Source: an uncultured Nitrososphaeraceae archaeon
Lineage (GTDB): Archaea > Thermoproteota > Nitrososphaeria > Nitrososphaerales > Nitrososphaeraceae
Length of the DNA stretch: 64,000 nt
Direction: 5' to 3'
NCBI GenBank assembly: GCA_963729045.1
Contig: CAVSMN010000020.1
Coordinates: 32,001 to 96,000, forward strand
Positions within the stretch are counted from its first letter, which is position 1. Each line of letters opens with the position of its first letter. A program made the position numbers and the translations under genes. Below are positions 2,675 through 46,623 of this stretch, one piece after another. The notes under the pieces are model-generated. The model searched no databases. It was not told the DNA's origin and worked only from the letters and a program-made list of their open reading frames with translations.

Positions 2675-2966
2675 TACCTACAATAATCAACAATTGTATG
2701 TATAACTTTTTTTTATTACACTAAAATTAAAATTGGGTTAGAGTAATTATCAAGATATTTTATTATCGTTTTTGTGCCTGTAAATATAAGATTTCAGTAT
2801 TTGACAATATGATGAAAACAAAAGGTCAGAATATAAATAAGTTATATTAGTAATAAAATCAAATATTCTCAGGTTATCAATCCATTCACCGGACTGACTC
2901 CAGTTATAAAAACCTGTTAAACCCATGTGGATATCCTCATGATTTTACCGAACCCGTCATAGTATA

Positions 2967-2990
2967 CGGGACTTAAGCCCACCGGACCCA
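2967..2990 (+). repeat. Degenerate tRNA 3'-end-like (att-like) repeat copy
   Basis: cgggacttaagcccaccggaccca; a second partial copy accgaacccgtca at 2947. Confidence 0.6.
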
Positions 2991-3128
2991 TTGTAATTTA
3001 CTATTTATCAAAAAAACTAGGCAAACGTAAACATATTATCAACTACCGGAGGAGAGATAACATTATGTGATACTATTATTCAGAGACTAATTTTAAATGC
3101 AATGAGGATTAATTAAATTAGATATTAT

Positions 3129-3569
3129 TTGTTCACTGAAAAAGAAAAAGAGTATATTAAATCACAAAGACTTGCAAGAATAGCTACTGCCTCCGCAGTT
3201 TCCCCCTCAGATATTGCAAGTTGTCAACCAGATGTTGCTCCTGTGGGTTTTGATTTTGATGGAGAGTACTTTTATGTGGGTGGAATAAATATTTTAAAAT
3301 CTACTAAATACAAAAATATTCTAAAGAATAATAAAGTTGCCCTAGTTATCGATGATTTAAAGACTATCAATCCTTGGGACCCACGAGGTATTAGGATTTA
3401 TGGAATAGCAGACACCGTTGATCGTCAAGGAGGGTATATGTCCAATACGGACCATCCACAATCTCGATATATAAGAATAAAGCCTAGTAAAAAATGGGGT
3501 TGGGGAATTGATGAACCCGTTTTTGTAGAAGGCAAATTTAATGTGAAAAAATCTACTACTAGTACCTAA
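3129..3569 (+). CDS. PPOX-class F420-dependent oxidoreductase (split-barrel)
   Basis: MFTEKEKEYIKSQRLARIATA, QPDVAPVGF, KYKNI...KVALVIDD, PWDPRGIRIYG. Confidence 0.85.
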   Translation: MFTEKEKEYIKSQRLARIATASAVSPSDIASCQPDVAPVGFDFDGEYFYVGGINILKSTKYKNILKNNKVALVIDDLKTINPWDPRGIRIYGIADTVDRQGGYMSNTDHPQSRYIRIKPSKKWGWGIDEPVFVEGKFNVKKSTTST

Positions 3570-3768
3570 AAAAATAAAACCATTGCTTTTTGAAGTAAAT
3601 ATAAAATTAATAATATTTACTAGATAAATCAACCTATTCTAAAGTATCGACATCATCTCGAAGTATCGAGATAAATTATATCTATATCTTTGTAGATATC
3701 CGCTATAAATCGATTAGTATTATCCATCCCAAAATTAAAGATAATCGTTAAATTTGAATTTGTATTAG

Positions 3769-3993
3769 ATGGTATATATGAAGATACGCGAATGTTGCGA
3801 TGGAATGAAAACTATGATAAGGGAAAATGCATTTTGGATATCAAGTATTAGTCAAAAAGGATGGTTAAAGGTGATAGAACACGACGGTACTATGGAGTTA
3901 GGGATAGATCCAAAACTCCATAATTACGATATTATCTATTGTCCATTTTGCGGAATTCAAATAGAGGGACAAGCGGATCCATTTACCAAATAG
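3769..3993 (+). CDS. Small Cys-containing hypothetical protein (CC...CPFC)
   Basis: ECCDGM and IIYCPFCG motifs; TATA-like ttaaa ~20 nt upstream. Confidence 0.55.
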   Translation: MVYMKIRECCDGMKTMIRENAFWISSISQKGWLKVIEHDGTMELGIDPKLHNYDIIYCPFCGIQIEGQADPFTK

Positions 3994-4183
3994 ATTAATC
4001 CTTAATACCTCGAATTATTTCGGAATTAAAAAAGATCCATCTTTAATATGTTAAACATCGCATGCACTAAAATTGTATTTAATCTTGAATCATATCACTC
4101 ACGGAAGTTAACAAATAGTATAAACCCCCTGAATGAAGGATTTGCTCCCATAGAGTTCCCATATACAACGGAATATATCAGAA

Positions 4184-4831
4184 TTGGACAACAGTAACAG
4201 TAACAGAACTTTCTTCGGTGAATTAATAAAATTACAAAACGAATTTTCAAAAAGAGTTATAGTTAGAGATGATTTTGATAGTAATATCGAATTTATTTGT
4301 GGAGTAGATGTATCTTACAGGAAAAAAACTGCGTTCTGTTCAGCTGTTGTAATCAATAAAGAAAAGTTTGAAATTACAGAGACAGCCATTAGCAAAAGCG
4401 AGATAAAGAATCCATATATTCCAGGCTTGTTTATTCTAAGGGAATCTGCGCCCATCCTTCAAACTTTGAAATTGATCACAAAGCCTTTCCAACTTTTGCT
4501 AGTGGACGGTCATGGGATACTTCATCCTAGGAGATGTGGGTTAGCAAGTTACATAGGCATAGTTACAAACTTGCCAACAATAGGTGTCGCAAAAAATTTG
4601 TTATGCGGTTGTGTCCAATCAAGCAACTTTGTAAGCCATAAAGGTGAAATTCTTGGGTACGCATTAAAGGGTAAAAACAACTCGAATAAAATTGCATACA
4701 TCAGTGTTGGACATAAGATTAGTTTAACAACGTCAATACAATTAGTTGAATCAATGACAAGAACAAATCAATTCATTCCAGAGCCTCTTAGAGTCGCGGA
4801 CAAGTTATCAAAACAACAAGACTGTAAATAA
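4184..4831 (+). CDS. nfi: Endonuclease V
   Basis: GVDVSY, PYIPGLFILRE, LLVDGHGILHPRRCGLAS, PTIGVAK, YISVGHKISL, IPEPLRVAD. Confidence 0.95.
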   Translation: MDNSNSNRTFFGELIKLQNEFSKRVIVRDDFDSNIEFICGVDVSYRKKTAFCSAVVINKEKFEITETAISKSEIKNPYIPGLFILRESAPILQTLKLITKPFQLLLVDGHGILHPRRCGLASYIGIVTNLPTIGVAKNLLCGCVQSSNFVSHKGEILGYALKGKNNSNKIAYISVGHKISLTTSIQLVESMTRTNQFIPEPLRVADKLSKQQDCK

Positions 4832-5060
4832 TCTTCAGCCGCTTCCAAACGAATTATGTGCGGTCAAAATAGTAAAAAAGCAATTTCTTTTGTAAGGTCG
4901 ATTTTATCGGATTGTGTAATAATCAGCAAAACTAAAAAAGATAAGGACTTATATCGTCCTGAAGTCCACCAAACCTGTTATAATTTTGCTGTTATATTAT
5001 AAAATTACTAAATAGGTTTCTTTGAATAAATATTTATTTAATTAATTAACAGTTCATATA

Positions 5061-5090
5061 TACCGCGTGGATTTGAAGTCCACTGAGCCA
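5061..5090 (+). repeat. Degenerate tRNA 3'-end-like repeat copy with intact T-arm hairpin
   Basis: taccgc GTGGA tttgaag TCCAC tgagcca; another weak copy gaagtccaccaaacctgtta at 4961. Confidence 0.55.
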
Positions 5091-5387
5091 GATACCCATT
5101 CTAGTACCGACATTAATATTCTCTCGATTGCGCTTTATCTGACTTATAATGAATCCAACATCTTCTTGAATAATGGAAAATTATAAAAATAATTTTCTAG
5201 AAAAACTATAATCAGTGTGGTAAACATTTCCATCAATGATAGTTCCAGTTCTGATTTGTCCTACTTCATAATTTCCTGCTCCAAAAGTTATTTGCACTCT
5301 CAATACGAGATTATCCATCACCGATATTTAGGATTCATATTTACTTCATTTATATAAATTTTAATTATACATGATCAATATGTCAAT

Positions 5388-5942: not shown

Positions 5943-6557
5943 CTAATACACTCATCTATCCTTTTTTTAAAATGTAAACTGGTATCAATAATACTACAAT
6001 ACAAAAACTTTATCATAATAAGCTTCATCTACATTGGGCCTTCCCCCAGCATAACCAATCAAATGAAAAGTTTTGGTCCCAAGTTACGTGCTTTTCCTCC
6101 GGCAAAATTTCAACCCCTTTTAGAATTCCAAAAAGTGATCCAAAGAAGCAAAGACAAATTATTAATACTATCGCTATTAATGGAGGAACAGTCTCATCGT
6201 CACTAGAAATTTAGAAACTATATCGTTACGACACAAATATTTTTTTTGATTTATCTACGTTAGTTTCTGTTCATTTACCGTTACCATAAAAATCAATAAA
6301 CCCTACAAAAATGATATTAATAGTGATAGAATTCTATTTTAAAATAAATTGTAATTGCAAAAGCATTGGCGAGCATTTCAATGTAACATCACGATTACGC
6401 AATAAAACCATCGATTTTAAAGTAAACATTTTTTAGCTAATCTATTAGATCAGTTTATTAATTAACCGAACCAATAAATTCAAAAAATATTATCTCTTTG
6501 GAAGTTAGTTAATCTTGCTAATAACTTTAAGAAAAAAGGATAGTTTATTTTTCTCTT

Positions 6558-7187
6558 CTAATTTTTAGACTGATAATTTTTTTGAGTTGATAACAATGCA
6601 TCGTTGTTGTCTCTTTCGATTCTCTCATATGCTGATACATTTCTTTTTCCTATTTCTGCAAGATGTTTAGATTGTTTCTTTGTGTTATCAACTACATTTT
6701 TGAATAATTCAATATTAGAAAATGCCATATCATTAAAAATTCTACTCATTGCTATTGTATTTTCTGCACAATTATTTACTAATTTCGAGTACATTTCTGG
6801 CATTCTTCTAAAGTAATCTTGGTTATTCAATAATTGGTTATTTACATTTTGTATATATGGAGTGGATAATGATTGAAAAGAATCAATTGTTTGTTTTTGA
6901 TATTCAAGATAGTTTTCTGCAATATCTTTAGTAGCTTGAAGTGTCTGTTCTTGAACTTGATTAACAGTTTCAGTATAACGTGGAATCTGATTTCTTGCTT
7001 CTCTAATACTTTCATCTATACTTTTTTTTGACTCATCAAAAGCTTGTTCAAGTGATTCGGTGTTTTGTTCTATAATTCTATTATATAATCTTTGATTACT
7101 TTGGTAAATATCTTGTTGATTACTAACATTATCATTATTTAAAGATGAAGTTTGGTAATTAATTTCTTTTTTATCGTTCTTAGACAT
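6558..7187 (-). CDS. Helical Q/N-rich hypothetical protein (possibly phasin-like)
   Basis: 209-aa ORF of amphipathic helices with Q/N/E-rich composition; function inferred only. Confidence 0.7.
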   Translation of the reverse strand: MSKNDKKEINYQTSSLNNDNVSNQQDIYQSNQRLYNRIIEQNTESLEQAFDESKKSIDESIREARNQIPRYTETVNQVQEQTLQATKDIAENYLEYQKQTIDSFQSLSTPYIQNVNNQLLNNQDYFRRMPEMYSKLVNNCAENTIAMSRIFNDMAFSNIELFKNVVDNTKKQSKHLAEIGKRNVSAYERIERDNNDALLSTQKNYQSKN

Positions 7188-7647
7188 TGTAATAATTTGT
7201 AATTATTATACTATATAAACAGAGGTATCCATTGGTTTTTAATACCCGGCAAGAGATTTATTCGTCCTAATCAACTCATATTGATCAAAAGTCTACTAGA
7301 GTTTTCCTTTACAAATGATTGTTATCCGAGAATAATTAAGTCAAACTAAATCATTCTAAACGGTATCGATCCTAGACCCTCAGTCAAGATTTTTTTTCTC
7401 TAAAGTTCGAGTTGTGAGTCATAATAGTCATCTAGACATTTTGACAATCAGATCATCTTCTCATTCTCTAACATTTACCAAATGTAAACGTTACAGGTAT
7501 GAGCGATTTAAAAAAATAGTAATCAGTTAATGCCCAAAGATTTCAAATAATCCAATATCAAAATAATTTTGAATCACTACCATCGCAAAGAGAATACATA
7601 ACAATATATACAAGATCTTAAATCCTCGACTGAGAAGGCTATAAAGT

Positions 7648-8037: not shown

Positions 8038-8218
8038 CGATATCAAAATCTTAACAGCCGTCAACGGCTATATCAGTGCAATGAAGAGATCTTAAAAGAA
8101 TCTAAGGTATCGAATTTGTTCCACATAACTATGCATGAGGAACAGTTAAAAATCCTTATCATGGTCATGTATGATGAATATATATATTAACGAAATTCTA
8201 TAAATCCTATTCATATTC

Positions 8219-8764: not shown

Positions 8765-9392
8765 TGATACTTTTTTAAAAATCATTAAGATAAATGTATT
8801 TAACCCCTCACTTGAAATAGATTTGTTGAGCGTTCTATTCATTTTTTTGTATCTTATCAGTTCGACTTTGGTTTTAAATAGAATAGCATTATTGGCTATC
8901 TCATCATAAGATTTGCAAGAAGGGCACTGAAAAACTAATCGTTTTAAGCATTTGAAATAATATTCTTCCCCAGGAATATAGTTGTGAAAATCCGAAATGT
9001 AAAGATTGTTTGTATGATTCACAATCAGATTTTGTCAGATTGTCTGATTTTATATGACTACGTAGAGAGAGTTCATAATCTTTTATGAATATTTTAATAA
9101 TAAAACATTTTAAACTTTAGAATACTTGATTGATTAGTAGAGAGAAAATAATATCTCAAGTATATTTCCTTATTCCTACAGGTTTCTATTACAGTGAATG
9201 CTATAAAACTCTATTATCAATATCTTAGTTTCTATGGACTTTTAAAAAGAATCATAAAACCTTCATCTGATAAAAGGAAAGCAATAGGTTACCTTAAGGG
9301 TCGAGATTTTGAAGAATCTATTGCCAATTACTAAATCGGATGAAAAAATGATCAAATAGATAAATAAGTTAAATCAAATCATCAATTGATAG

Positions 9393-9770
9393 TTGTATAT
9401 TAGAATAAAGGACATTTTTTATTCATTATTTTTCTTTTTTATTGCTGGCGTATGTGAGATAGGAGGCGGTTACCTGGTATGGTTATGGTTAAGGGAAAGC
9501 TATAGTTGGATATTTGGAGTACTAGGCGGTTTTGTTTTATTTTTGTATGGCGTAATTCCTACATTACAAAAAACACATTTCCATAGAACATATGCAGCTT
9601 ATGGAGGAATTTTTATTATAATGGCTTTAGGCTGGGGCTATCTCTTTGAAGGATTGATTCCGGATATTTATGATATAGTTGGAACTATTGTCGCTGCTAT
9701 TGGAGTCATCATTATTTTTTACTATCCACGTAAAAGGGGGGAAAAAATTGGAATCAACACTTCCGGATAA
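9393..9770 (+). CDS. YnfA/UPF0060 (SMR-related) membrane protein, copy 1
   Basis: AGVCEIGGGYLVWLWLRE, RTYAAYGGIF; 4 TM segments. Confidence 0.9.
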   Translation: MYIRIKDIFYSLFFFFIAGVCEIGGGYLVWLWLRESYSWIFGVLGGFVLFLYGVIPTLQKTHFHRTYAAYGGIFIIMALGWGYLFEGLIPDIYDIVGTIVAAIGVIIIFYYPRKRGEKIGINTSG

Positions 9771-10110
9771 TTATAACCTAATCTTTATCATTTCAACCTT
9801 CGGATTGTTTTTGGTTGCTGCAATTGCTGAAATAGGAGGAGGATATCTTGTATGGCAATGGCTAAGAGAAAGAAAAACGATAGGCATTGGACTTGTTGGA
9901 GGTATCATACTATTTGTATACGGAATAATTCCAACTCTTCAGCCATCAAATTTTGGTAGAGTGTATGCTGCTTACGGAGGAATATTTGTTGTGATGGCAA
10001 TCATTTGGGGTTTGCTGATAGACAAAAAAAGACCCGACAGATTTGAAATAGTTGGAGGTTTTATAGTTCTTATAGGTGCATTCATAATATTCTATGCCCC
10101 CAGACAGTAA
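9748..10110 (+). CDS. YnfA/UPF0060 membrane protein, copy 2
   Basis: AAIAEIGGGYLVWQWLRE, FGRVYAAYGGIF, PDRFE; likely TTG start at 9748 overlapping copy 1. Confidence 0.9.
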   Translation: MESTLPDNYNLIFIISTFGLFLVAAIAEIGGGYLVWQWLRERKTIGIGLVGGIILFVYGIIPTLQPSNFGRVYAAYGGIFVVMAIIWGLLIDKKRPDRFEIVGGFIVLIGAFIIFYAPRQ

Positions 10111-10623
10111 CTAAATATTGTAAAATCAATCTACTTTTATATAAACTGCAGTTCCCCTTCAATTCTTTTAGAGAACATCTATAAATGGATTTTCTATATC
10201 CTTGTCAGACATTAAATGTGTTGTACATCTGTAAGTTATCATTCAAGACAACTTTTTTTGAAAGGCAATAAGGTTTCAATAAAGGCCTTGTTTTTTATGA
10301 TAGTACTTAGCATCACTATTATATAGCATGCCTCAGACCTTCTCATGCTTTTGTTTTCCTACTGGCGGTAAACTTATGGCATGATTGTAACCTTATCACA
10401 CCTTATATAGAAAACAACCGATTCTTAACGACTCGGTGTGTCCACATAAGGTAGAGTATTTTATATAACATAGTATTTAACCCCTAATCATTTGGTGCAT
10501 CTTTTAATGTATCATTGAAATTTGAAAGTTTGAAAAAGTTAGACCCAGGTAAATGTCACTAATATTATTTGTATATTATTCACTTATCCATCAAGGCTTG
10601 GTGTCTAACGATGTAAAAAACTT

Positions 10624-10914
10624 TCATCCGCTAAGTGGTATCGCCTCTTTCTTTCTATTTTCTAGTTCATTAATACCATCCGGAGTAATTTGGTAATTTT
10701 CGCCATCTTCAGAATGTATAAGACTTTGAGCAATCAAATCTTCAATTGCTTGATCTAGTAGAGGGAACATAGTTTTATCTATGGAATCCATTAAGTCTCC
10801 AATGCTGGTTGAAGAGTTTTTGGAGTCAAACTTGGTAGATAATTTCTCTAACACAAAACCTTCAACATTGTGAAGAGCATCTGTCTCATCTTTGGAATCG
10901 GATATTTTATCCAT
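10624..10914 (-). CDS. Small winged-helix-like protein
   Basis: LDQAIEDLIAQSLI...YQITPDGINEL wing pattern. Confidence 0.65.
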   Translation of the reverse strand: MDKISDSKDETDALHNVEGFVLEKLSTKFDSKNSSTSIGDLMDSIDKTMFPLLDQAIEDLIAQSLIHSEDGENYQITPDGINELENRKKEAIPLSG

Positions 10915-11498
10915 AATAATAAGTGTGTGCTACGCTTAAATTCTTATCTTTGTAACTTGATCAAGGTATTACAATCGAGAAGAATAATAGGCCAAAATGA
11001 GATATATATCTTGTTTCAACCGATCGTGTTGTGATTTCTATCAATGAAATATTAATAGAATTTATGCAACTGTAATATAGTGTCATAATCTCAAATGAAA
11101 ACTAAACAATTTCTAATAGCATTCTAAATATTATTGAATACTCATAATCAATATACAATGATAATTCTTATGAGAAAGATTTTGAGTTTAGGCTCGGAAT
11201 ATATCTACTACTAAACCCACCAGGTCCGTCTCATAATTGATCCAAATCATGGCCCGATGTGCATTTTAATATTTTTTAATTCGATGATTATTTCCCTCTG
11301 ACAGATAAATGTATAATGTATGGCATATGTTTCTCTATATTCTGTTTTATTTTTTAATTTATGGTCATACAATATACACCAGATCGTTAATTACATCAAT
11401 CTAAAAGACATATAATTACAAATCTACAAAAATAGCAGCTCAGATAGAAATGTTATCCAATAGACAATATTGGAAATAAAAGGATTGTTTATTTCTTT

Positions 11499-12631: not shown

Positions 12632-13284
12632 TCATCGTGATTCAAAATTCTTTAATTGTTCTTTGAGTTGCGCTATTTCGGCATCCTTTACTTTTATTAT
12701 CATGTCTCTTTTTGATATCTCATTTTCTGCTTTAATGAGCTTTTCATGAATTGGTTTAAGTTGTTGAAACTCTTCTAATTCCGGAATTGTAGTTTTGTAG
12801 ACTGATGCCATGGCAGTTCATTCTTAGCCAAATTTAAAATATCCGTATCAAGACGTTTTAATTGTTCTATCTTCTCAAAAATATATTTATCAAGGTTCTC
12901 TATTGGAACACCTATTCTATTAGAAAGGTCAATTAGATGATCTAGCCTAGATAAAAATTCTGAAATTTCAAGATTTCTAGTAAAACAATGGATATGTAAT
13001 TTCTCTATAGCTGATTCAGCAAGATCTTCATTAATTCCTAAATTATTAAGCTTATTTTGCAATCTAACAGTAAAAGCAAACCTATTCAAATCAAGTCCTG
13101 TTTTTCTCAAATTCAGGGCAACTTCCCTCATTAAATCTATATCTCTAATTTGACTCCTTGTTTCATTGATGATAGCAGAAATCATTCCAACACTAATTTT
13201 ATTATTTGTTGCTATTTCATCTCTGAGAATACCATCTAACCATTGCGAGATTACATTTTTCTTTATTGAATCAGGTATTACCAT
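12632..13284 (-). CDS. HTH-like N-terminus plus coiled-coil hypothetical protein (frameshift near 12820)
   Basis: QWLDGILRDEIATNNKISVGMISAII; continuation LEEFQQLKPIHEKLIKAENE...LKNFESR* in another frame ending at 12632. Confidence 0.65.
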
Positions 13285-13519
13285 ACTATATATGAAACCG
13301 TAGATATTTAGGACTTACAGGGATAGTGATTTTCTTTATTATATTTCCCACTTTTTTCTTTTTGACACATTCTTGAACCCATTTTGACATTGAATTAATC
13401 TTGAATTGACCAAATATTGACACAGGTCTGGTATTAAATACCAAAGGCCAAACACCTAGTCCCAATTTTAAGAGGTAAAACATGGATCATGATAACAAAA
13501 TAAAGTAGCAGATCACATA

Positions 13520-13552
13520 TACCTACTAGATTCCAAGCCCACTAGGCTTGCT
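13520..13552 (+). repeat. Degenerate tRNA 3'-end-like repeat copy
   Basis: tacctactagattccaagcccactaggcttgct aligns with tacctcctggattcgaagcccaccgggcccgcc (reverse complement of 46226-46258). Confidence 0.65.
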
Positions 13553-15031: not shown

Positions 15032-15094
15032 CTAATTAATATAAAAGAATAATCTTATTTCTCTAGATTAAAATAGTTTATTTTTGTTGAAAAA

Positions 15095-15132
15095 GTGGGT
15101 TCGTATCAATTATTAAAACCACCGGGCCAGCA
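15095..15132 (+). repeat. tRNA 3'-end-like repeat copy with an insertion in the T-loop
   Basis: GTGGGTTCG-tatcaattattaaaa-CCACCGGGCCAGCA. Confidence 0.55.
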
Positions 15133-15727
15133 ATTCATTTTAGTAACTATTTTTTGACATATATGTGTCTTAATGCAAACTAAAAATCCACTTATTAAAT
15201 AATGGTATTAGTATGAGATTTTTAAGAAACTTGGAACGAATCTCATATTATATTATCTACCCACATTTCATTAAAAAACGGAAATCAGAAGATAAGTTTA
15301 CTATCCTTACTAGGTGATTGTCTTTGGGATACAGATTAAGTATGAATTACCATCTACTGATGTCTGTGCTAGAGAATTATTGTCTGTATTTTCCTGACCC
15401 TATTATGCCTCCTATTGGGGAGTTGGCATTATTGGTGACTCATCTCCTATCCATATAAGGAAAGAGATTTGGGATATGTATGAATTATCTGCAATCATCA
15501 AGTATGAATCATACAAAGGAAAAAGGCCATTATATCTTTATTATGGAATTTGGACGCAAGATCTCAAGACATTGCGTTACTAAAATTTAACAAATATAAT
15601 TAAATGAAAAGTACGGAGAAATCATTGATTGACTTTATCCTAGAAATAAAGTTTTTAGAACGATAAGAAAACACAAGATAGGTAAAACAAATACATGAGA
15701 TAAATCATAAATTAACATTGTATTTGG

Positions 15728-17694: not shown

Positions 17695-18232
17695 ACAGTC
17701 TGTATAAATATCGACCTTATAACCTTAGCTTCAAGAAAACACCAATGGTTGCTCATTTGTGTTGTGTGTGTGCTAGTCTAAATAGGACCGAATCAAAATG
17801 GTGGAATACAGTACGAGAATTATAGTTATCAAGCCCAAGAGAATCAAAGAGTTCTAATAAATTCGGATCCACAGTAATCGAGTCCTGCTTTAGTGGATGA
17901 TAATACATCAGAAACCACCTAGCCCGTTATATACTACCATATCATTTTAAATGAGTCTTAAATGAATTCTCTATCAATAGGCAGCCAAAATTGGGATTTA
18001 ATCTTATCCTGATTTTGCCTAGAATTTCATATTGCATAATTTTTAGTGTTCAACTATAGATAGCAAATAATAAATCAATTAAGATATAAATTAGATGGTA
18101 AATTGACAGAAAGCAAAGAGAGGCACTTGTCTTGGCATTAGCTGAAAAGGGGAAAAATTGTAGAGAAATCACGAAAGAGTTATTGGGGTTTCCAAACACA
18201 ATCAAGACAGTCACTGGAACGTGTAGTTTACC

Positions 18233-19521: not shown

Positions 19522-20205
19522 TTTTGTCTCTGTCGGCAACGAATCAAAATAGTCACATCTTATAGAGGTTAAAAGAAACAATAGACATTTTTGTTTATAT
19601 GGTAAAACACAATAGCTAGCAATAGTAACAACGGTGACATCATAGTCTTTTTCTGTCTGTTGAGTTTATCAATGCAAAATCAGTGGTACTATTGGTGTTT
19701 TCATTCACCATCCCAATAATCTTCAACATAGGAATAGGAACAGATTGAAGGATATTCGATAGGAAGGACATGAATTTATTAAGTTGTCATTCAATAAATT
19801 CCTGAAAGACATCACCATGGATTGCAAAGAAAGAACTCCATTTATTTCCAAATATTATTATTATTTGAATTTAAAAATAGTGAGGCACAATGTCTATCAT
19901 ATGTATACTTTACATATGATGGGGACATTTGTAAGAGGGGTTCATATACACTGTCATAAATGGAAGCCAAATGGAATTTAAGATTGACCCCTGAGGCTAA
20001 ATCTTTCTAACCCTTTCAATCATATTTAGTTTATCCTGTAAATGATAATTTTCTATAAATTAGACTGTTATGTTTTTATAAATTTCGTTCTGACATTTCG
20101 ACTCGTAATATTATTTACTGCTAAACTCACCAGCATCGTCAACTATCTTAGTAACATCGTTTAATAAGATTGAAAGGATAGTATTTTCCTGAATTTGACT
20201 CTTAT

Positions 20206-27795: not shown

Positions 27796-28117
27796 TGCTT
27801 TATTATTATTGTATAAATATTTAAGAATAATTAGTATTATGGTTATTGGTAATCTAATTAGAAATAGTACGATATCATGCGATTTCTACATTAATGAATT
27901 TTCAAATACAGGCATGATAATGGCAGAATCCACATTAAAGGACCGATATTGTCTTGAAGGCAATTGTTAAGGATGAGGAGCTAATCCATTATAGATGATA
28001 AAGACAGATCATAATAAAATTTGTACGATGTTGCAACTACAATTTTTCAACTAAAATTTTACTTCTATCAAGTTAACCTTTGAATACAATAGTTTTTGAG
28101 AGGATTCATTGATTCAA

Positions 28118-28441: not shown

Positions 28442-28957
28442 TTAACTTTAAATGAATACGTATAAAAAGAATTCAAGATTTAATGAAATGTCAAGTCAAG
28501 TTAAAATCTAATCCAAAACATAAACTTCTAATGAGGTTAACAAAAATGTTCTAAAGGCAACATAAACAAATCAATCGTTTGTAGTAGAAACGCAACGGAA
28601 ACCATCCGGCCAGTATCAAACTCGAATAGAAGATACGACTAGTTGATGATTTATAGAAATCTGTTATTTTAAATGAACCTCCTAATGGAACCCACAAGAG
28701 GGAAAGTTTGACCATTTTCCACTAATAACTATTATTGAAATATTAGTTAATCATAATCATAAAGTATCTTTTACAGCTTTAACAACATTAAATGATGAGG
28801 ATAAAGACACAAAAGTTCAAGACATGAAAGCACGTCCTCAAGATTCAACAATATTTATTTTGGTTAGTGCTTCATTCATTCATGTTAAAGAAATGATGTT
28901 AAATGAAGCCATAAAGAAGGAAGGAAATTTTATCTATAAGTATGCAAGTTATCTTTT

Positions 28958-29428: not shown

Positions 29429-29906
29429 CTTGCTTATGATTAGGTTTGTTCTCTCTTTTGTTTTGGTAATAAAATTCTAGATCAAATATGTCTATTAATG
29501 GATTATATTTGTTAAACTGATCTACCGATCTATAAATATCATCAATAACCGATTTTTGATTGACATTAAAATCCGGATAATTTAACTACTAATTCTTTTT
29601 GGGATAAACCTATCGAAAGATATGATATTAATCTTCTATATTCAAAATCCCCACGAGAGGACCGATATAGTCTTGAGGTCTACCGGTCCTACTATAATTT
29701 TACTACATAATAAAACCACATAGTACAGTTTAAACTATTAATTAGATTCTCAATAAAATACTTTGTACCATCTGAGTGTTCAGTAGTTAGAAGACAGACA
29801 GACAGATTAATAAAATTACATGCTGGATAAACATAAATTGTAATTGAGGATCGGTATAGAATTTGTAAAAAAATAAATAGGCTTATCTGGTCTATACAAG
29901 AGTATT

Positions 29907-34350: not shown

Positions 34351-34841
34351 TTGTTTACTTAAATAATGAGTATTATAATATACATCCAACAAATTACGTT
34401 TCCCTAATTATAACTTCATTCTACTAAAGTAAGTTTCTATAAATTATTATGTAACAATATATCGATCATAATCTAAAGGATAACCAGAGAAAGACAGATA
34501 ATAATTTTGAATCAGAATAAAAATCCTATCTTTATAGATTCAATCCAAGATTAAATGTCGACCGTAGATTAGAGTGTACTTTAACATATATAATCACCAT
34601 TATTTTTGAATAAATATTTAAAGATAAACAGTATTACGATTAGTAATATGCGAGTTAATAATATAAGATCCGATTATCAATAACCATTTCTAAAATATTG
34701 AATTTTCAAATACAGAGATGATTATGGTGGAACCCGCATTAAATGACTGATATAATCCCAAAGTCCAACAGGTTCATTGAAATATCATTAATGCATGACT
34801 AGATTCAATTAAAGATAATTATTCTGAAATTGACTATCCCT

Positions 34842-35049: not shown

Positions 35050-35433
35050 GTCTTTTTGATTTATTAATTAACTGACAATTTTTCCTATATTTACTAAATC
35101 CAAACATTTTTCTTGGATTTTTATAACCTAAAATAAAAAAAATATTAGCTATTACTAATATCCTATCTAATAGCTCGATACTACTGTTATTTTCTTTAGA
35201 GCTATGTTGTTTAAGCCGAAAAACAACATGGCTTTAGGTTTATTTATAATTTCAAAACTATTCAAAGATAGATGAATTGTAAAGATAGGAAACATAGAAG
35301 TATTATTGGTTGCTTGCTAATTCTTTTTCTTGTGTAAAGACAGAGATAAAATGCCAGGACATGTTTGTGTCATGTTTCAACTGTTTTGCCTGTTAGATAA
35401 GATTATTAATAAATATCATAAAATATAACCCAA

Positions 35434-35459
35434 GGATTCGAAGCCCATCGGGTCGATTA
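35434..35459 (+). repeat. tRNA 3'-end-like repeat copy (well conserved)
   Basis: ggattcgaagcccatcgggtcgatta; 20/26 identity to the 46225 copy. Confidence 0.75.
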
Positions 35460-35509
35460 AGTAATAGGCTATACTAGATCAAGTTTTAAAAATATAGTCA
35501 TTTTAACCA

Positions 35510-40093: not shown

Positions 40094-40552
40094 ACCTATA
40101 AGGTTTATTACTTTTTTGTGCTAATCGATTAACAATTTCAGTTCAGCATTTTCTCTTTATTTTCAACCTACGATAATAGCCTGATCAGTGGGGCATTTGA
40201 CCGAACATCTTTAGTCTATATAACAGGAGTAGGTGATAACCTAGTGATGCATGGTTTACAGGACAATGACTATAATCATAATTTTTAAGCATAATATCAT
40301 TCAAATACCAGTAAAGGATCAGAACCGCTCAATTTAGAAAACAAACCGTCCCTCGACGACAGTATGTCAGTAATGTCCTAATTAATCCTTTTAATAGTGA
40401 AAATATCTTAACACAGGACTATGCTAGATATGGCAGTAAGATGCTTCTAATTTATCAAGATTTTGTCAAATTGAACTATTTTTTACATTTTATGAAAATA
40501 AATGTACAAATAATATTACATTATTAAATCATTATTAAGTTGTAGTTAACCG

Positions 40553-42340: not shown

Positions 42341-42618
42341 TATGATATAGTAAGATGTTATATAGAGTTAATATCTGTTATTGTACAACTACAGTATTAC
42401 GAAATTACGTTTAACATAGTCATACGGATAAAAATTATAATATGTTTTAAATACAAAAATATTATCAACTTTATCTAGTTTCAATCATTTCCAGGAGATA
42501 TAGTTAGACGTAATAACAGAATTCAGGTCTTGAAGCAATCTGGGCCGTTTGCTATAATCGCTCTTTATGGTCTAGATTATTAATAAGATGTAAACATGAC
42601 AGCATTGGATTAGATGAT

Positions 42619-44112: not shown

Positions 44113-44474
44113 ATCCCTCTAAATTCATGTATGAGAAAAAATAATGTAGGTTCCAATTCTGAAGCAAGAGTATTTTTCTCAGCCAAAGTGTCTACCTTTA
44201 ATGAATTTTCAAGTCCTGTAACTGGTTGTGTGGTATCTGCTTCTGTACTTATCAGATCTATCATATTTGGTAAGACAACTGTTAATTCTACGTTAGTCCT
44301 ATCATCAACAGCCACCTGTTCGTTGGCCCACTTCACATTCATCAGATGATTTTTTCCATCAAAAGAATACAAAGGTATCTGTCGTCCAAATAAGAATTGT
44401 GAATTAGGTAAATTGAACAAAAGTGTTAAAATCCCAAAACAAAGGACCATATTCCTTAGAATTTGATGGATCAA
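44109..44474 (-). pseudogene. Truncated duplicate of the 22977-23600 gene
   Basis: LRNMVLCFGI, WANEQVAVDDRTNVELTVV, QPVTGLENSLKVD; homology stops at ELEP; upstream sequence also duplicated. Confidence 0.8.
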
Positions 44475-45701
44475 CGTTATGTCTAATGTGTACAAAAAAG
44501 TATATAACCAATCTAGTTCAATCATCGAAGTCGATTTTTGACGATAAAAGGAAATTAAATCAAAATTTTTTTAGAAACAGAACAGGCAATTTGTTTGCAT
44601 TAGCAGCAATAGGCACAGATTTATTTTTATGTCTAAAAGTAATTTGCGGACTGTTGATCGACAAAATATGACTAATACGCCTAAGAATATGATGTATCAG
44701 CGGGTCAATTTATTGATTTGGGAGTTCTTGATGCAGGCGAATATGGTAGTTATCGAATCAATTGATTCCTAATTTATCTTGATCCGATTTGTAATACATT
44801 CGTTGAATGTACAAGAAGTCATATTAATTATGAATTTGAATAAAGATATGACCTTGACCTAGTCATAGAAACAAACAACAAAGCAAAGATACAAATGTCT
44901 CTTCGTGGTAGTAAATAATGGCAATAAATCTACGCAATCTTTGTCATTATTTACTATCTTGCTGCAATTAATCGAAAATGATCCTATAATAAACATTTTC
45001 CAAATAGATAAAAATGAAGGCGTTTCATCAGTAACGTCTATACACCAAGGAATATATAAATAGATACTGTTAGAGAAGAACTTTACAATCAATTTTAGAA
45101 AAATAAACCATTGTATAGAATGGAGGATGGCAATCGATCACAGGTATTTCCTAATATTCAATGGCTGTTATTCAACTTTCTTTTTCAAGTAACTTGTTAT
45201 CATTATGTTTGTCAACTGAAGTGTGGCAAAATATGATGATCCAATTATTATAAATCTCCCGATTTCATTTAATTGCAATTACTATTTTATAGTAAATATT
45301 TTAATTGAGTATCTGTTGGTTAATATTTATGAAACAAATTATGAATATGATGACAAATCCACTGTAAGATCACCAGTAGCAATTTATTGAAAATTAAATG
45401 TAGGAACAAAAGATTTCTGATTAAAAATATCCTGGAATTCTTGTCTATTTAATATCTGTAAATTCGTCTATTTATGGATGGCTTATATTGAAAGGAATAT
45501 GCCCGACATTAATTCATGTCAATTATCATAATATTATGTCCCCCGAATGTCGAAATTATTTCGTCCTATTATATGAAAATAATCTATATGTTAGAACAAC
45601 ATACTTTAACAATATAAGAATTCAAACTAGGGGATTGATGCAGTTGAAGTTCCCGGTAATGTAAAAATTGGGCCTAGTGTATAACATTTCTCGTTTGTTC
45701 T

Positions 45702-45878
45702 TTATAGACGTACTCCAGAAGAATACCAATTTCCATGCGAAGCTTCTGTAAAAAGTACTATAACTTCTTCTTTGCCAACCTTCAATATTTTAACTAAATC
45801 TTCAGTAATTGCTTCTGCTAATCTATCCTTTTCTCTCTGAGTTCTCCCACTATACATTTGTATATTAACTATGGGCAT
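45702..45878 (-). CDS. 4-oxalocrotonate tautomerase family protein (58 aa, below the ORF-track cutoff)
   Basis: MPIVNIQMYSGRTQREKDRLAEAITEDLVKILKVGKEEVIVLFTEASHGNWYSSGVRL*; Pro1, GRT, NW motifs. Confidence 0.9.
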   Translation of the reverse strand: MPIVNIQMYSGRTQREKDRLAEAITEDLVKILKVGKEEVIVLFTEASHGNWYSSGVRL

Positions 45879-46224
45879 GATAATTAATCATCATCGATAC
45901 TAATAAGATTTCAGCTGAGGCAGAGTCTAGCGCTACACCCTCATGTAATAAAATACTTGAACAAAAAAGAGAAAATGGTCTTTAATCAACAATGTATTAA
46001 GTCAGCCCAGGTAATTCAAATTATAATCAATCCAAACTACAAGGACAGTTCACAGACCAGAATAGCAACGTTGTTTCCTGATGTCCTTTTTTCATTTAAA
46101 ATGCAGAAAACCTGACAGAATATTAAAATTTTTTACTTCAAATGAACCAATACTATACTTTTTTGGTAATCCAAAGATTCAATATCGTATATATTGTCTA
46201 TCAATAAATTGCTACTAAAACAAA

Positions 46225-46250
46225 TGGCGGGCCCGGTGGGCTTCGAATCC
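46225..46250 (-). repeat. tRNA 3'-end fragment (T-loop, acceptor strand, CCA), att-like; best-preserved copy
   Basis: Reverse complement GGATTCGAAGCCCACCGGGCCCGCCA; no tRNA 5' half adjacent. Confidence 0.8.
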
Positions 46251-46623
46251 AGGAGGTAGTTGAGAACTGATGTTTTATTTATTGTTTGGATACCATCAAT
46301 ACAATATTACTAATTCACTTAAAGAATTGTTGTTACAATAGGTCCTGTTCGTTAAGTGTAGACATGTTTCGTGGAGTTAGCCAAACTACTAATGCTTTGA
46401 TTACAATAATAAGATGACAATTTGATTGGGTGATTTCTAACTCACACGAATCTCAGCATTACTTACTATAAAATATATGTTCTAAATTGATTTTCTAACA
46501 CATTTATTTCAATATCTCGACTACCTTCCTAGCTAATGCTTTCCAAATTAAAAAATTTTGGTTGGAAGTCTGCAGATGTTTTGGTAAATGATGCACCTTA
46601 AATTTGTATATGATAATAATATC

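What the first reader, a model, noticed from the sequence alone, without database searches (positions are those of the whole stretch)
2947..46258. About 12 dispersed, decaying copies of one tRNA 3' end between accessory genes
Seen: the best copy is at 46225-46250 (minus, GGATTCGAAGCCCACCGGGCCCGCCA). Related intergenic + strand copies occur at about 2967, 4961, 5067, 11213, 13528, 15095, 17911, 20123, 28598, 29668, 35434 and weakly 42526. Differences are mostly C>T and G>A. Several copies also share a non-tRNA 5' flank (TACCtcCTGGA, TACCtaCTAGA, TACCgcGTGGA), as hybrid att junctions would. Established: tyrosine integrases target tRNA 3' ends and duplicate them; a CGGGCCC-G-CCA end fits archaeal tRNA-Lys or tRNA-Arg. 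Inference: repeated integration and cargo accretion left a cassette-like array of accessory genes separated by att scars, or this is a tRNA-derived interspersed repeat. No integrase is in the window, and the weakest copies could be chance.
Basis: partly seen in the sequence, partly recalled or inferred. Interest (0 to 1): 0.8.

Follow-up and report, generated by a model that had tools for sequence, protein, structure and literature searches.

The report
Integration scars downstream of tRNA-Arg gene
The dispersed tRNA-like repeats are attachment-site scars left by many successive insertions of mobile DNA next to one arginine tRNA gene of a soil ammonia-oxidising archaeon, so this stretch is the old, decaying end of a long array of captured accessory genes.

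Summary
The repeats share a 13-17 nt core (GAAGCCCACCGGGCCCG). This core is the exact 3' end of tRNA-Arg(TCG) in related genomes. Their non-tRNA 5' flanks fall into four classes, which I call L, S, A and B.

In complete relatives the intact tRNA heads a co-oriented array of about 20-40 such cores spread over 100-180 kb. In two relatives the tRNA is followed by a full-length integrase gene and a ~32-33 kb element that ends in an L-type copy. A third relative has that site empty.

In this genome:
- All cores lie in non-ORF DNA.
- They coincide with synteny breaks.
- They decay with distance along the contig.
- One is followed by a decayed integrase fragment (window 15398-15600).

The best reading is serial site-specific integration (tandem accretion) at tRNA-Arg(TCG), with the window holding the distal, oldest part.

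The closest analogue is the Dehalococcoides ssrA island array. That makes this a new archaeal member of a known kind.

One question stays open: whether the small integrase-less cassettes still move in trans. Near the array head their order is scrambled between species, yet their orientation is always kept.

The parts
2972..2996 (+). att-scar core (CTTAAGCCCACCGGACCCATTGTAA); 5' flank unclassified
   Evidence: Weight matrix 32.3 bits. S-profile partial hit E 1e-4. A homology block with G041 starts at 2975.
4943..4985 (+). S-type scar (AAGGACTTATATCGTCCT|GAAGTCCACCAAACCTG)
   Evidence: nhmmer E 1e-9 in a 3.1 Mb database. Matrix 21.2 bits.
5036..5088 (+). L-type scar, 52 nt after the S-type scar
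   Evidence: L profile 43.1 bits, E 1.3e-12.
11172..11239 (+). A-type scar (..CTCGGAATATATCTACTACT|AAACCCACCAGGTCCG)
   Evidence: A profile built from relatives, E 1.5e-11. Matrix 23.7 bits. A G041 block starts at 11225.
13498..13552 (+). L-type scar
   Evidence: L profile 38.3 bits. Matrix 20.6 bits. A G041 block starts at 13559.
15075..15146 (+). A-type scar, decayed
   Evidence: A profile E 1.2e-4. Matrix 19.7 bits at 15112.
15398..15600 (+). Decayed, frameshifted fragment of the integrase gene (profile positions 144-189), downstream of the scar at 15112
   Evidence: hmmsearch of six-frame pieces with the integrase profile: E 3.3e-6 (C20 47508-47600) and 8.5e-3 (C20 47398-47580). The orthologous fragment in G041 scores E 9e-4.
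17862..17945 (+). B-type scar (..TTTAGTGGATGATAATACATCA|GAAACCACCTAGCCCG)
   Evidence: B profile E 6.3e-9 (the profile includes its own G004 ortholog). Matrix 14.9 bits. Conserved in G004 and G041.
20077..20152 (+). A-type scar with a heavily decayed core
   Evidence: A profile E 3.7e-5. Paralogous flank match to G004 74408. Matrix below 6 bits.
27939..27959 (+). S-type 5' half only (AAGGACCGATATTGTCTTGAAG); core lost
Evidence: S profile E 9.9e-5. Ortholog in G041 at 970212-970232.
28548..28632 (+). B-type scar, decayed
   Evidence: B profile E 6e-10 (the profile includes its own G004 ortholog). Matrix 8.5 bits, borderline.
29658..29699 (+). S-type scar
   Evidence: nhmmer E 1.4e-8. Orthologs at G004 137672 and G041 968357.
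34741..34782 (+). Decayed S-type scar
Evidence: Matrix 7.5 bits at 34758. The sequence read aligns to the S consensus (by eye). The G004 homology block ends at 34753.
35423..35456 (+). L-like scar; 5' flank truncated
   Evidence: L profile 24.7 bits, E 7.9e-7. G004 and G041 blocks start at 35450 and 35458.
42526..42570 (+). Decayed S-type scar; the last scar shared with G004
   Evidence: Ortholog of the G004 S copy at 153098-153138 (E 2.5e-7), with aligned sequences. The 2.1-3.1 kb Vgb-lyase-like gene segment to its left is absent at this place in G004 and G041. Matrix below 6 bits.
46225..46287 (-). Best-kept L-type copy; the only inverted one, and absent at this place in G004 and G041
   Evidence: Exact 26-mer. 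L profile 46.3 bits. Not aligned in G004 or G041.

Best explanation
**What the repeats are.** They are attR/attL junction scars of integrative elements that inserted one after another into the 3' end of the tRNA-Arg(TCG) gene.

**How the array forms.** Each incoming circle recombines with the tRNA through a 13-19 nt identity (..TCGAAGCCCACCGGGCCCG). The tRNA is regenerated. The earlier tRNA end, and everything behind it, is pushed downstream. The result is an array of this form: tRNA - newest element - core - older element - core - and so on.
- The 5' flank of each internal core is the right end of the younger element. These right ends give the four classes L, S, A and B.
- The 3' flank of each internal core is the left end of the older element.

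**The enzyme.** For the L class it is a 447-453 aa divergent tyrosine-recombinase-type integrase. Its gene starts 64 nt after the core.

**Decay.** Over time the elements lose the integrase and most of their genes. What remains is 0.7-8 kb segments of accessory genes between scars, and the scars themselves decay, mostly by transitions.

**Where the window sits.** Window 2972-46287 is the distal, oldest part of an array of at least 78 kb. From about 49.2 kb onwards ordinary conserved synteny resumes.

**Shown.**
- Core identity with the tRNA.
- Co-orientation of the copies.
- Integrase next to the tRNA.
- The filled/empty site pair.
- Association of cores with synteny breakpoints.
- An integrase remnant in the window.

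**Inferred.**
- The order of events.
- That the S, A and B ends were made by the same or a similar integrase.
- That the intact tRNA lies in the assembly gap upstream of contig C20.
For: 1. **Parent tRNA.** The same-genus loci L013, L014, L015, L019 and L020 each hold a tRNA-Arg(TCG) ending in ..TCATGGGATCGAAGCCCACCGGGCCCG.

2. **Array anchored on the tRNA and strand-pure.**
   - Core with <=2 mismatches: 15 against 0 (G004) and 13 against 0 (G041), array strand against the other strand.
   - L+S profile hits: 21 of 21 on + in G004, 16 of 16 on - in G041, and 16 of 17 on + in C20:1-100 kb.
   - G041 has 10 more cores between the tRNA and 1,093 kb.
   - Of 8 genomes with the tRNA and a further copy on one contig, 7 have the copies downstream and co-oriented. 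G024 is the exception.

3. **Filled against empty site.**
   - G012 and G015: tRNA, then a full-length integrase, then ~32-33 kb, then an L-type copy.
   - G041: the tRNA is followed directly by the same 26 nt that follow the G012 attR.

4. **Integrase family.**
   - Invariant R179, K207, R298, H299, W320 and Y330 in 24 sequences.
   - NCBIfam XerA E 5.5e-5.
   - PF00589 in 5 of 24 members at E<=0.01.
   - The nearest named Atlas clusters are all PF00589 integrases, score 0.99.
   - Sources name relatives 'integrase/recombinase XerD'.

5. **Integrase N-terminal remnants** lie just downstream of cores in G004 (57.7, 76.5 and 150.8 kb), in G041, at C12:356.9-357.2 kb and at window 15398-15600.

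6. **Window statistics.**
   - Enrichment of matrix hits over shuffles.
   - 19 of 19 cores in C20:1-80 kb lie in non-ORF space, which is 51% of that DNA.
   - 8 of 19 have a homology-block end within 30 nt, against 1.95 for random non-ORF positions (P=0.0005, 2000 draws).

7. **Decay gradient.** Mismatches to the tRNA 17-mer rise with distance: rho 0.81 (p 5e-5) in C20 and rho 0.50 (p 0.005) in G004.

8. **24 metagenome loci with the exact L 23-mer.** All 24 keep the L 5' flank. The 3' flank falls into about 10 classes and diverges exactly after ..GGGCCCG.

9. **Published att lengths.** Thaumarchaeal att sites are reported as short, median 17 bp (PMC6563490, passages read).
Against: - **No intact parent tRNA in this assembly.** Only the 5' 43 nt are present, at C6:37740. 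The anchor is therefore inferred from relatives. The assembly is 87% complete.
- **Scars without any integrase trace.** No integrase or remnant lies near most scars. There was no tblastn hit on C20 and only one profile remnant.
- **Many segments are very small.** At 0.7-2 kb they are too small ever to have been autonomous elements. Simple 'integration then decay' does not explain why scars survive better than the elements between them.
- **Four different right ends, but only one tied to an integrase.** Only the L type is linked to an identified integrase.
- **Some L copies break inside the core.** These (C20:23858, C7:174068 and 177361, C10:42571) break at GAAGCCCA| and continue with a shared GAATTCTTAATC.. 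sequence. The model does not predict this.
- **The best-kept copy does not fit simply.** It is inverted, lies beyond the last shared scar, and is specific to this genome among the three compared.
- **The gradient is not significant in G041.** Only part of that array was covered (rho 0.17, p 0.37).
- **The comparison genomes are kin,** so counts across them are not independent.
- **The integrase is below Pfam's and NCBIfam's curated cut-offs,** and has no sequence match in the PDB.
Confidence: 0.85

Rival explanations
1. The array is not only a graveyard. It is a live, integron-like gene-capture platform. In this reading the short segments between cores are cis-mobilisable cassettes that carry no integrase. 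An integrase supplied in trans by a resident or incoming element excises them as circles and reinserts them at the tRNA or at other cores.
For: - **Order scrambled, orientation kept.** In the tRNA-proximal part (C20:1-32 kb) the segments shared with G004, G041 and G012 are scrambled in order. All 17 of 17 HSPs of >=250 nt still keep the array's orientation.
- **Some segments are much closer than the neighbouring core genome.** They are 94-96% identical to G041 or G004, while the core synteny next to the array is 85-87% (G041) and 90-91% (G004).
- **One cassette in two contexts.** The 0.87 kb one-gene segment C20:3397-4267 is bounded by cores in both G000 and G004 (115826-116693, 91.9%), but its neighbours differ.
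- **A recurring mini-cassette.** An HTH_7 gene sits between two cores twice in G004.
- **Metagenome contigs break at the cores.** Contigs at >=92% identity break or join at 1242-1252, 4234-4272, 5323-5377, 8135-8172 and 14075.
Against: - No circular form, attP-only contig or excision junction was found. Two viral-contig scans found nothing; in metagenome contigs the attP-form pattern found nothing and the L 23-mer found only junction copies.
- The joints have short sides (20-44 nt), come from contigs of mixed relatives, and can arise from the repeat itself.
- Independent acquisition from a shared pool, always at the tRNA, would also scramble the order while keeping the orientation.
- The window's own part of the array is collinear with G004 and G041 and is decaying, so it looks fixed.
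Confidence: 0.3
2. The repeats are a tRNA-derived transposable or retroposed short element (MITE- or SINE-like) that spread through the genome.
For: - The repeat is short (55-80 nt) and multi-copy, and it contains a tRNA 3' end.
- Copies also occur on other contigs: C7, C10, C12, C15, C17 and C8.
Against: - The copies are strand-pure and sit at one locus headed by the tRNA in every relative examined in detail.
- I saw no terminal inverted repeats and no target duplications in the aligned copies and flanks; no dedicated search was run.
- The constant part ends exactly at the tRNA end, and the other side is whatever lay there before.
- C20:1-78 kb holds 19 hits (>=10 bits), against 55 in the other 2.6 Mb. 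That is about 11-fold enrichment, and the 55 include real tRNAs.
Confidence: 0.03
3. The repeats are functional RNA or regulatory signals kept by selection: tRNA-like 3' processing signals, terminators or promoters.
For: - The L flank carries a TATA-like TAAATAAAA about 20 nt before an ATG inside the core.
- The S flank has a 5 bp + 7 nt + 5 bp inverted repeat that is paired in 93.7% of cells.
- AGGAC is invariant in all 19 S copies.
Against: - There is no Rfam match at E<=1.
- None of the 5 stem pairs shows a compensatory change.
- The short frames that start at the ATG differ by indels and stop after ~20 codons (read).
- The neighbouring genes lie on either strand with no rule.
- The cores decay with distance.
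- The invariance of AGGAC may come from how the copies were found.
Confidence: 0.03

Closest known systems
Tandem ssrA genomic islands of Dehalococcoides (PMC3146451; passages read)
   Same: - Over a dozen direct repeats of the 3' end of one small-RNA gene.
- All lie within ~100 kb downstream of that gene, in one orientation.
- They bound strain-specific accessory-gene islands.
- A conserved non-target motif sits just upstream of each repeat.
- Many islands lack an integration module and were proposed to be cis-mobilisable elements gathered by accretion.
- Beyond the last repeat lies a fixed, syntenic region.
   Different: - The target here is tRNA-Arg(TCG), not tmRNA.
- The host is an ammonia-oxidising archaeon.
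- The integrase is of the tyrosine-recombinase type, not a serine recombinase.
- The identity is 13-19 nt rather than 20.
- There are four right-end classes.
- The number of scars is larger (about 20-40 per genome) and many segments are smaller.
CIME / accretion-mobilisation at ICESt1-type elements (review PMC5704250; passages read)
   Same: Decayed elements that keep attL and attR but have lost integration genes. [quoted passage not shown]
   Different: Cis-mobilisation has been shown by experiment in streptococci and is only inferred here. No conjugation genes were seen in this array. Only the first ~6 kb of the ~32 kb G015 element was annotated; it has a Prim-Pol protein.
Integrated mobile elements of Thaumarchaeota (PMC6563490; passages read)
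   Same: - tRNA genes are the commonest targets.
- att sites are short (median 17 bp).
- The paper states that tyrosine-recombinase elements form arrays by re-using one site.
- It describes cryptic integrated elements.
   Different: The word 'Nitrosocosmicus' does not occur in that paper's main text. The passages I read describe tandem pairs, not arrays of tens of scars. I did not read its supplements.
Gene capture by SSV-type partitioned integrases in Sulfolobus (recalled; not read here)
   Same: Archaeal elements trapped next to tRNA genes and flanked by tRNA-derived repeats.
   Different: In the SSV type the att site lies inside the integrase ORF, which is split on integration. Here the integrase ORF starts 64 nt after the core and stays whole.
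Integrons, including the archaeal ones reported in 2022 (recalled; not read here)
   Same: An ordered, co-oriented array of small, mostly one- or two-gene cassettes separated by recombination sites.
   Different: The sites are copies of a tRNA end, not attC hairpins. No IntI-type integrase sits next to an attI with a cassette promoter. Cassette genes lie on either strand.

Membership tests
tRNA-targeting integrative elements (attL/attR direct repeats made by site-specific integration) | The direct repeat is identical to part of the target tRNA gene. | tested here: met
   GAAGCCCACCGGGCCCG equals the last 17 nt of tRNA-Arg(TCG). 21 nt (TCGAAGCCCACCGGGCCCGTT) are shared between the tRNA with its flank and the attR in G015.
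tRNA-targeting integrative elements (attL/attR direct repeats made by site-specific integration) | An intact target tRNA at one end, co-oriented with the repeats. | tested here: met
   Met in G004, G041, G012 and G015. Not testable in G000, where only the tRNA's 5' 43 nt are assembled.
tRNA-targeting integrative elements (attL/attR direct repeats made by site-specific integration) | An integrase gene next to an att site. | tested here: met
   A full-length integrase starts 64 nt after the tRNA in G015 and G012. Remnants follow cores in G004, G041, C12 and at window 15398-15600.
tRNA-targeting integrative elements (attL/attR direct repeats made by site-specific integration) | Occupied and empty versions of the same site in related genomes. 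| tested here: met
   In G012 the 26 nt TTTGATATCTCTTCCTTTTTTAAGAC follow the attR. In G041 the same 26 nt follow the tRNA directly.
tRNA-targeting integrative elements (attL/attR direct repeats made by site-specific integration) | Excision to a circle carrying attP. | not testable with these tools
   No attP-form contig was found. That is not evidence of absence.
Tyrosine recombinases (Pfam PF00589) | Match to the family profile above the curated cut-off. | tested here: not met
   - The G015 protein scores E 0.09, 13 bits, against a cut-off of 27.1.
- 5 of 24 relatives reach E<=0.01.
- NCBIfam XerA scores 22.8 bits against a cut-off of 220.
- The PDB sequence searches were empty.
Tyrosine recombinases (Pfam PF00589) | The catalytic R-K-H/Y-R-H/W-Y set, conserved and in order. 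| tested here: inconclusive
   R179, K207, R298, H299, W320 and Y330 are invariant in 24 sequences, in the expected order. Atlas neighbours are all PF00589 clusters at 0.99.
SSV-type (partitioned, 'suicidal') integrases | The att site lies inside the integrase ORF, which integration splits. | tested here: not met
   The ORF begins 64 nt downstream of the core and is whole in the integrated state.
Integrons | attC-type imperfect-palindrome sites between cassettes, and an intI-attI-Pc platform at the head. | tested here: not met
   The sites are tRNA-end copies with four unrelated 5' flanks. The head of the array is a tRNA gene. Genes lie on both strands. Whether the integrase has the extra domain of IntI was not tested.
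MITE/SINE-type interspersed repeats | Copies scattered in both orientations, with terminal repeats or target duplications. | tested here: not met
   The copies are strand-pure and sit at a single locus. The constant part stops at the tRNA end.

The most novel reading that the evidence does not exclude
tRNA-Arg(TCG) of Nitrosocosmicus-like archaea heads a working, integron-like capture array. Small cassettes without an integrase are each bounded by copies of the tRNA end. An element-borne tyrosine integrase excises and reinserts them in trans, and they are exchanged between species. This would explain why the order near the tRNA is scrambled while the orientation never changes, and why some cassettes are 94-96% identical between genomes whose adjacent core DNA is 85-91% identical.
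Probability: 0.3. Interest if true: 0.75.

Novelty: new member of a known kind. Interest (0 to 1): 0.5.

Why it matters
**Genome plasticity in a soil nitrifier.** The result locates and explains a 100-180 kb variable region in a genus of soil ammonia oxidisers. One tRNA gene acts as the entry point for most of this accessory DNA. In the window that DNA includes genes for copper handling (a multicopper oxidase and CopD), redox-stress proteins (MsrB, OsmC, a DUF899 thioredoxin-like protein), ion channels and hydrolases.

**A practical marker.** The 13-17 nt core, together with the four flank classes, can be used to delimit cassettes in metagenome-assembled genomes. It can also explain contig breaks, and the order of scars can be read as an order of acquisitions.

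**A possible archaeal parallel.** If the small cassettes prove mobile in trans, this would be an archaeal counterpart of accretion-mobilisation or integron-like gene capture. It could be tested in cultivated strains.

Tried and rejected
- **Sulfolobales assumption.** I first took the genome for a Sulfolobales genome with SSV-type att sites. An archaeal amoA gene and Nitrosocosmicus protein names corrected this.
- **Leaderless gene-start idea.** The ATG in the L core with a TATA-like box ~20 nt upstream suggested a gene start. I dropped it because the frames stop after ~20 codons and differ by indels between copies.
- **Split or intron-bearing tRNA at C6.** I dropped this when G015 showed both the 5'-part-plus-integrase junction and, 22 kb downstream, the intact tRNA.
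- **Phage and plasmid collections.** No match to the best copy and its flanks.
- **Rfam.** Nothing in the window at E<=1.
- **Window ORF 12775-13284.** It is not a relative of the HTH_7 cassette protein (BLASTP E 2.0).
- **Cassette X (C20:3397-4267).** It was not found next to the tRNA in G041, G012 or G015.
- **Collection scans.** The L junction and the bare core were absent from viral contigs, and the attP-form pattern was absent from metagenome contigs. This is no evidence of absence.
- **XerA as a comparison protein.** None was found in this genome at E<=1e-10.
- **Sequencing runs.** No run held more than 0.36 of the sampled words of C20:1-10000. The contig lay-out shows only breaks and short-sided joints. 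Uncovered parts say nothing.
- **Earlier notes of this scan.** None exist for this genome.

Full report
**1. What is in the window**

The window is G000:C20:32001-96000. Its G+C content is 32.7%. ARAGORN finds no tRNA gene in it, and Rfam finds nothing at E<=1.

The genome carries an archaeal amoA gene. The closest named relatives of one of its element proteins come from Candidatus Nitrosocosmicus. The host is therefore a soil-type ammonia-oxidising archaeon. My first guess, Sulfolobales, was wrong.

A Pfam scan of 56 ORFs shows a loose collection of accessory genes on both strands:
- PNPOx (two copies), endonuclease V, MsrB and a RibD_C protein;
- two UPF0060 genes, a TPR protein and a glucose/sorbosone dehydrogenase;
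- a split CLC channel, OsmC, DUF899 and TMEM175;
- an alpha/beta hydrolase, a multicopper oxidase, NHL and Vgb-lyase-like propellers, and CopD.

Only about half of the DNA lies in ORFs of >=80 aa.

The 26-mer at 46225-46250 (-) is exact and unique.

A plain mismatch scan with the first 23 nt gives these counts:

| Matches out of 23 | Observed | Expected (40 dinucleotide shuffles) |
|---|---|---|
| >=16 | 5 | 0.075 |
| >=14 | 10 (8 on +) | 3.8 |
| >=13 | 27 | 21.7 |

I then built a weight matrix from 28 cores found only in two relatives. At >=10 bits the window has 9 hits on + and 1 on -, against 0.6 expected (100 shuffles, maximum 3). The hits are 46222(-), 2972, 11210, 4959, 13532, 15112, 17908, 35438, 29673 and 5073. 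Site 28595 scores 8.5 bits.

The two sites that failed this test are rescued by their flanks:
- 20077-20152 matches the A-type flank profile (E 3.7e-5).
- 42526 is the ortholog of a clearer S-type copy in G004.

- 27939-27959 is an S-type 5' half.
- 34741-34782 is a decayed S copy.
- 4943-4985 (S) and 5036-5088 (L) are two separate neighbouring copies.

The total is 16 copies, 15 on + and 1 on -. No hit of >=6 bits lies beyond 46.3 kb.

**3. The repeat is four junction classes with one common core**

Profile searches separate four classes. The bar marks where the shared core begins.

| Class | Consensus |
|---|---|
| L | TAAATAAAAnTAACAGWTCCCATRTACCTCATGGATTC\|GAAGCCCACCGGGCCCG |
| S | AAGGACYGATATCGTCCT\|GAAGCCCACCGGGCCCG |
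| A | ..AGACTCGTAATATATCTATTACT\|AAACCCACCGGGCCCG |
| B | ..TTTAGTGGTAAAAATGCAGCG\|GAAACCACCGGGCCCG |

Only CCCACCGGGCCCG (13 nt) is common to all four classes.

In the window the classes fall as follows:
- L: 5036, 13498, 35423 and 46225(-).
- S: 4943, 27939, 29658, 34741 and 42526.
- A: 11172, 15075 and 20077.
- B: 17862 and 28548.
- Unclassified 5' flank: 2972.

Among non-orthologous S copies the shared stretch is only about 55 nt.

**4. The parent tRNA**

This assembly has no tRNA with this end. The nearest is tRNA-Lys(TTT), at 5 mismatches in 26.

In five genomes of the same genus the core is the 3' end of tRNA-Arg(TCG)..GGTCATGGGATCGAAGCCCACCGGGCCCG. The L class extends the likeness to TCATGGATTCGAAG.., which is 2 differences over 27 nt.

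In G000 only the first 43 nt of this tRNA are found, at C6:37740. They are followed by a frameshifted integrase of another family (PF16795-like, 25 bits, below the cut-off). G015 has the same kind of junction and, 22 kb downstream of it, the intact tRNA.

I read the C6 junction as the left end of an element that duplicates the tRNA's 5' part. I infer that the intact tRNA of G000 lies in the assembly gap behind C6 and in front of C20. This is an inference; the assembly is 87% complete.

**5. The array in relatives**

- **G004.** The tRNA is at C34:56.6 kb. It is followed by 20 L+S copies out to 153 kb, all on +. The core matrix finds 30 on the array strand at >=8 bits and 5 on the other. The matrix was trained on these genomes, so that count leans its way.
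- **G041 (complete genome).** The tRNA is at 1,132.9 kb on -. Ten further cores lie in the next 39 kb, and 29 lie between 1,075 and 958 kb.
- **Strand purity.** With the plain core at <=2 mismatches, the strand counts are 15:0 in G004 and 13:0 in G041.
- **Placement.** Of 8 genomes in which the tRNA and another copy share a contig, 7 have the copies downstream and co-oriented. In G024 two L copies lie upstream and inverted.

Window 7.4-46 kb is collinear with G004:C34:120-158 kb and with G041:989-947 kb, with segments present or absent. From 49.2 kb onwards the blocks become long: 3-10 kb at 90-91% (G004) and 85-87% (G041).

The window therefore holds the far end of the array.

**6. Mechanism: direct evidence for the L class**

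In G015 the tRNA (locus L034 positions 47-121) is followed at position 185 by a 453 aa ORF. A wHTH protein and an 867 aa Prim-Pol protein come next. 31.5 kb downstream lies an L-type copy..CACATGGATTCGAAGCCCACCGGGCCCG|TTTGATTTTT.

G012 has the same layout, with a 447 aa protein and an L copy at 33 kb.

In G041 the tRNA is followed at once by TTTGATATCTCTTCCTTTTTTAAGAC. These are the same 26 nt that follow the G012 attR. This is an occupied/empty pair.

The evidence that the protein is a tyrosine-recombinase-type integrase:
- It has 1658 relatives at E<=1e-5, many named integrase/XerD by their sources.
- R179, K207, R298, H299, W320 and Y330 are invariant in 24 sequences.
- It gives weak profile matches: XerA 5.5e-5, PF00589 0.09, and 5 of 24 relatives at <=0.01.
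- Its nearest Atlas clusters are all PF00589 integrases, score 0.99.

It misses the curated cut-offs and has no PDB sequence match. A fold test could not be run. I therefore call it a divergent tyrosine-recombinase-type integrase, with membership by catalytic pattern only.

It is not of the SSV split type, because the ORF starts 64 nt after the core.

**7. Support inside this genome**

- **Location.** 19 of 19 cores in C20:1-80 kb lie outside ORFs of >=80 aa, which cover 49% of that DNA.
- **Breakpoints.** 8 of 19 cores have an end of a homology block with G004 or G041 within 30 nt. The mean is 1.95 for random non-ORF positions (P=0.0005; 2000 draws). In the window these are at 2975, 11225, 13559 and 35450/35458. 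The segment with the Vgb-lyase-like gene, absent at that place in both relatives, ends at the scar at 42526.
- **Decay.** Mismatches to the tRNA 17-mer rise along C20 (rho 0.81, p 5e-5). This assumes that the tRNA lies before position 1. In G004, where the tRNA position is known, rho is 0.50 (p 0.005). In the part of G041 that was covered, the trend is not significant (rho 0.17). 157 of 255 mismatches overall are transitions, and 33 of 47 in the window.
- **Integrase remnants.** They lie just downstream of cores in G004 (57.7, 76.5 and 150.8 kb), in G041 (1,044.8 kb) and at C12:356.9-357.2 kb. In the window one lies at 15398-15600 (+), about 290 nt after the scar at 15112 (E 3.3e-6 and 8.5e-3).
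- **Independent metagenome loci.** 24 loci carry the exact L 23-mer. All 24 keep the L 5' flank, while the 3' side falls into about ten classes that diverge exactly after ..GGGCCCG. None has an integrase within 2 kb. This is what the model predicts: a constant right end of the newcomer, and a variable left neighbour.

**8. What the simple model leaves open**

*Small segments.* Many segments between scars are 0.7-2 kb, too small ever to have been autonomous.

*Proximal shuffling.* Near the head of the array the shared segments are shuffled between species:
- The C20 pieces at 3.4, 4.3, 4.4, 7.3, 21.5, 23.3 and 23.9 kb lie in G004 at 115.8, 127.9, 74.5, 106.2, 68.0, 78.3 and 75.2 kb.
- The order is likewise scrambled in G041.
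- All 17 of 17 HSPs of >=250 nt still keep the array's orientation.

*High identity.* Some segments are 94-96% identical to G041 or G004. This is well above the 85-91% of the adjoining core.

*One cassette in two contexts.* The 0.87 kb one-gene segment C20:3397-4267 is bounded by cores in both G000 and G004 but has different neighbours.

*A recurring small cassette.* A small gene with a resolvase-type HTH_7 motif sits between two cores twice in G004. A related short ORF lies at C20:22615-22857 (E 6e-6 over 22 residues).

*Metagenome contigs.* At >=92% identity they break or join at the cores. However, the joints have sides of only 20-44 nt and may come from the repeat itself or from other strains.

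Together these fit cassettes that are moved or acquired one at a time by site-specific recombination. They do not prove trans-mobilisation. No circle or attP-form contig was found.

Also unexplained:
- The L copies that stop at GAAGCCCA| and continue with a shared GAATTCTTAATC.. sequence.
- The window's inverted copy. It is the best kept, it lies beyond the last scar shared with G004, and it is missing at that place in G004 and G041.

**9. Rivals**

A MITE- or SINE-like repeat is excluded by three observations:
- the single locus;
- the strand purity;
- a constant part that stops at the tRNA end.

A functional RNA or signal has no support:
- there is no Rfam match;
- the S inverted repeat shows no compensatory change (0 of 5 pairs, although 93.7% of cells pair);
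- the short frames from the core ATG are not conserved;
- there is no rule of gene orientation;
- the cores decay.

**10. Comparison with what is known**

The closest described case is the array of ssrA genomic islands in Dehalococcoides (PMC3146451, passages read). It has:
- direct repeats of the tmRNA 3' end, all within 100 kb downstream;
- a conserved non-target motif upstream of each repeat;
- many islands without an integration module, proposed to be cis-mobilisable elements gathered by accretion;
- a fixed syntenic region beyond the last repeat.

The accretion/CIME concept is reviewed in PMC5704250 (passages read).

For Thaumarchaeota, PMC6563490 (passages read) reports tRNA targets, short att sites (median 17 bp) and tandem pairs. 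'Nitrosocosmicus' does not occur in its main text. Its supplements were not read.

Two full-text searches for Nitrosocosmicus together with integrase/tRNA/genomic island and with mobile genetic elements/integrated listed no paper on such an array. That is a statement about those listings only.

**11. Verdict**

The feature is a tRNA-Arg(TCG)-anchored accretion array of integrated-element scars, of which the window holds the old end.

It is a new archaeal member of a known kind. It stands out for the number of scars, the four junction classes, and the hint of cassette-level mobility near the array head.

Noticed in passing
G000 contig C6:37740-38716 (outside the window); G015:C1:2625534-2625930: A second element type uses the same tRNA from the other side. 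The first 43 nt of tRNA-Arg(TCG) are duplicated and followed by a PF16795-like integrase, which is frameshifted in G000. In G015 the intact tRNA lies 22 kb downstream. Related integrases sit next to tRNA-Thr(GGT) on C15 and tRNA-Ala(CGC) on C11.
   Followed up: partly
G000 contig C12:356600-361629 (outside the window): A tRNA with a 23 nt intron, which ARAGORN calls SeC(tca). With the intron at 37/38 it reads as Arg(TCT). It has an L-type scar 4.2 kb downstream whose core carries that tRNA's own variant (CCCTTCGGGCCCG). A decayed copy of the 453 aa-type integrase gene follows the scar.
   Followed up: partly
window 46225-46287 (-): The only inverted copy is also the best kept. It lies beyond the last scar shared with G004 and is missing at that place in G004 and G041. 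In G024 two L copies lie upstream of the tRNA and inverted. Inverted att copies could be substrates for integrase-driven inversion. This was not tested.
   Followed up: partly
C20:23858-23906; C7:174068-174119 and 177361-177412; C10:42571-42622; G004:67497; G041:1039755, 1110363, 1093762: L copies whose core stops at GAAGCCCA and is joined to a shared sequence (..GAATTCTTAATC..TAGTACGTCCCCAT..TTTAGAGAAC). This is a multi-copy junction that the simple model does not predict.
   Followed up: no
window 18279-19013 and 18937-19521 (+): A CLC chloride-channel gene is split into two overlapping ORFs covering profile positions 2-173 and 174-345. This is a probable frameshift.
   Followed up: no
window 9393-9770 and 9679-10110 (+): Two adjacent, overlapping UPF0060 (YnfA) genes. 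The 2.4 kb segment that holds them (8848-11225) is absent at this place in G041.
   Followed up: no
window 6529-7289: The 209 aa ORF without a Pfam match has copies at 90-93% identity on contigs C10 (38789-39548) and C8 (44889-45644), and in several relatives. It is a multi-copy gene.
   Followed up: no
window 3234-3583 and C20:25040-25386: Part of the PNPOx-like gene region is repeated at 94% identity 10 kb upstream of the window.
   Followed up: no
C20:7320-7345 (outside the window): An S copy with an internal deletion of the core (AAGGGATTGATATCGTCCCGAAGTC|TGTAAT). It sits exactly at the left edge of a segment that is 95.5% identical to G041 and 93.6% identical to G004.
   Followed up: partly
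G004:C34:56780-57247 and 63964-64512: A resolvase-type HTH_7 protein gene of 155-182 aa lies alone between two cores. One copy sits directly behind the tRNA in a 0.85 kb segment.
   Followed up: partly
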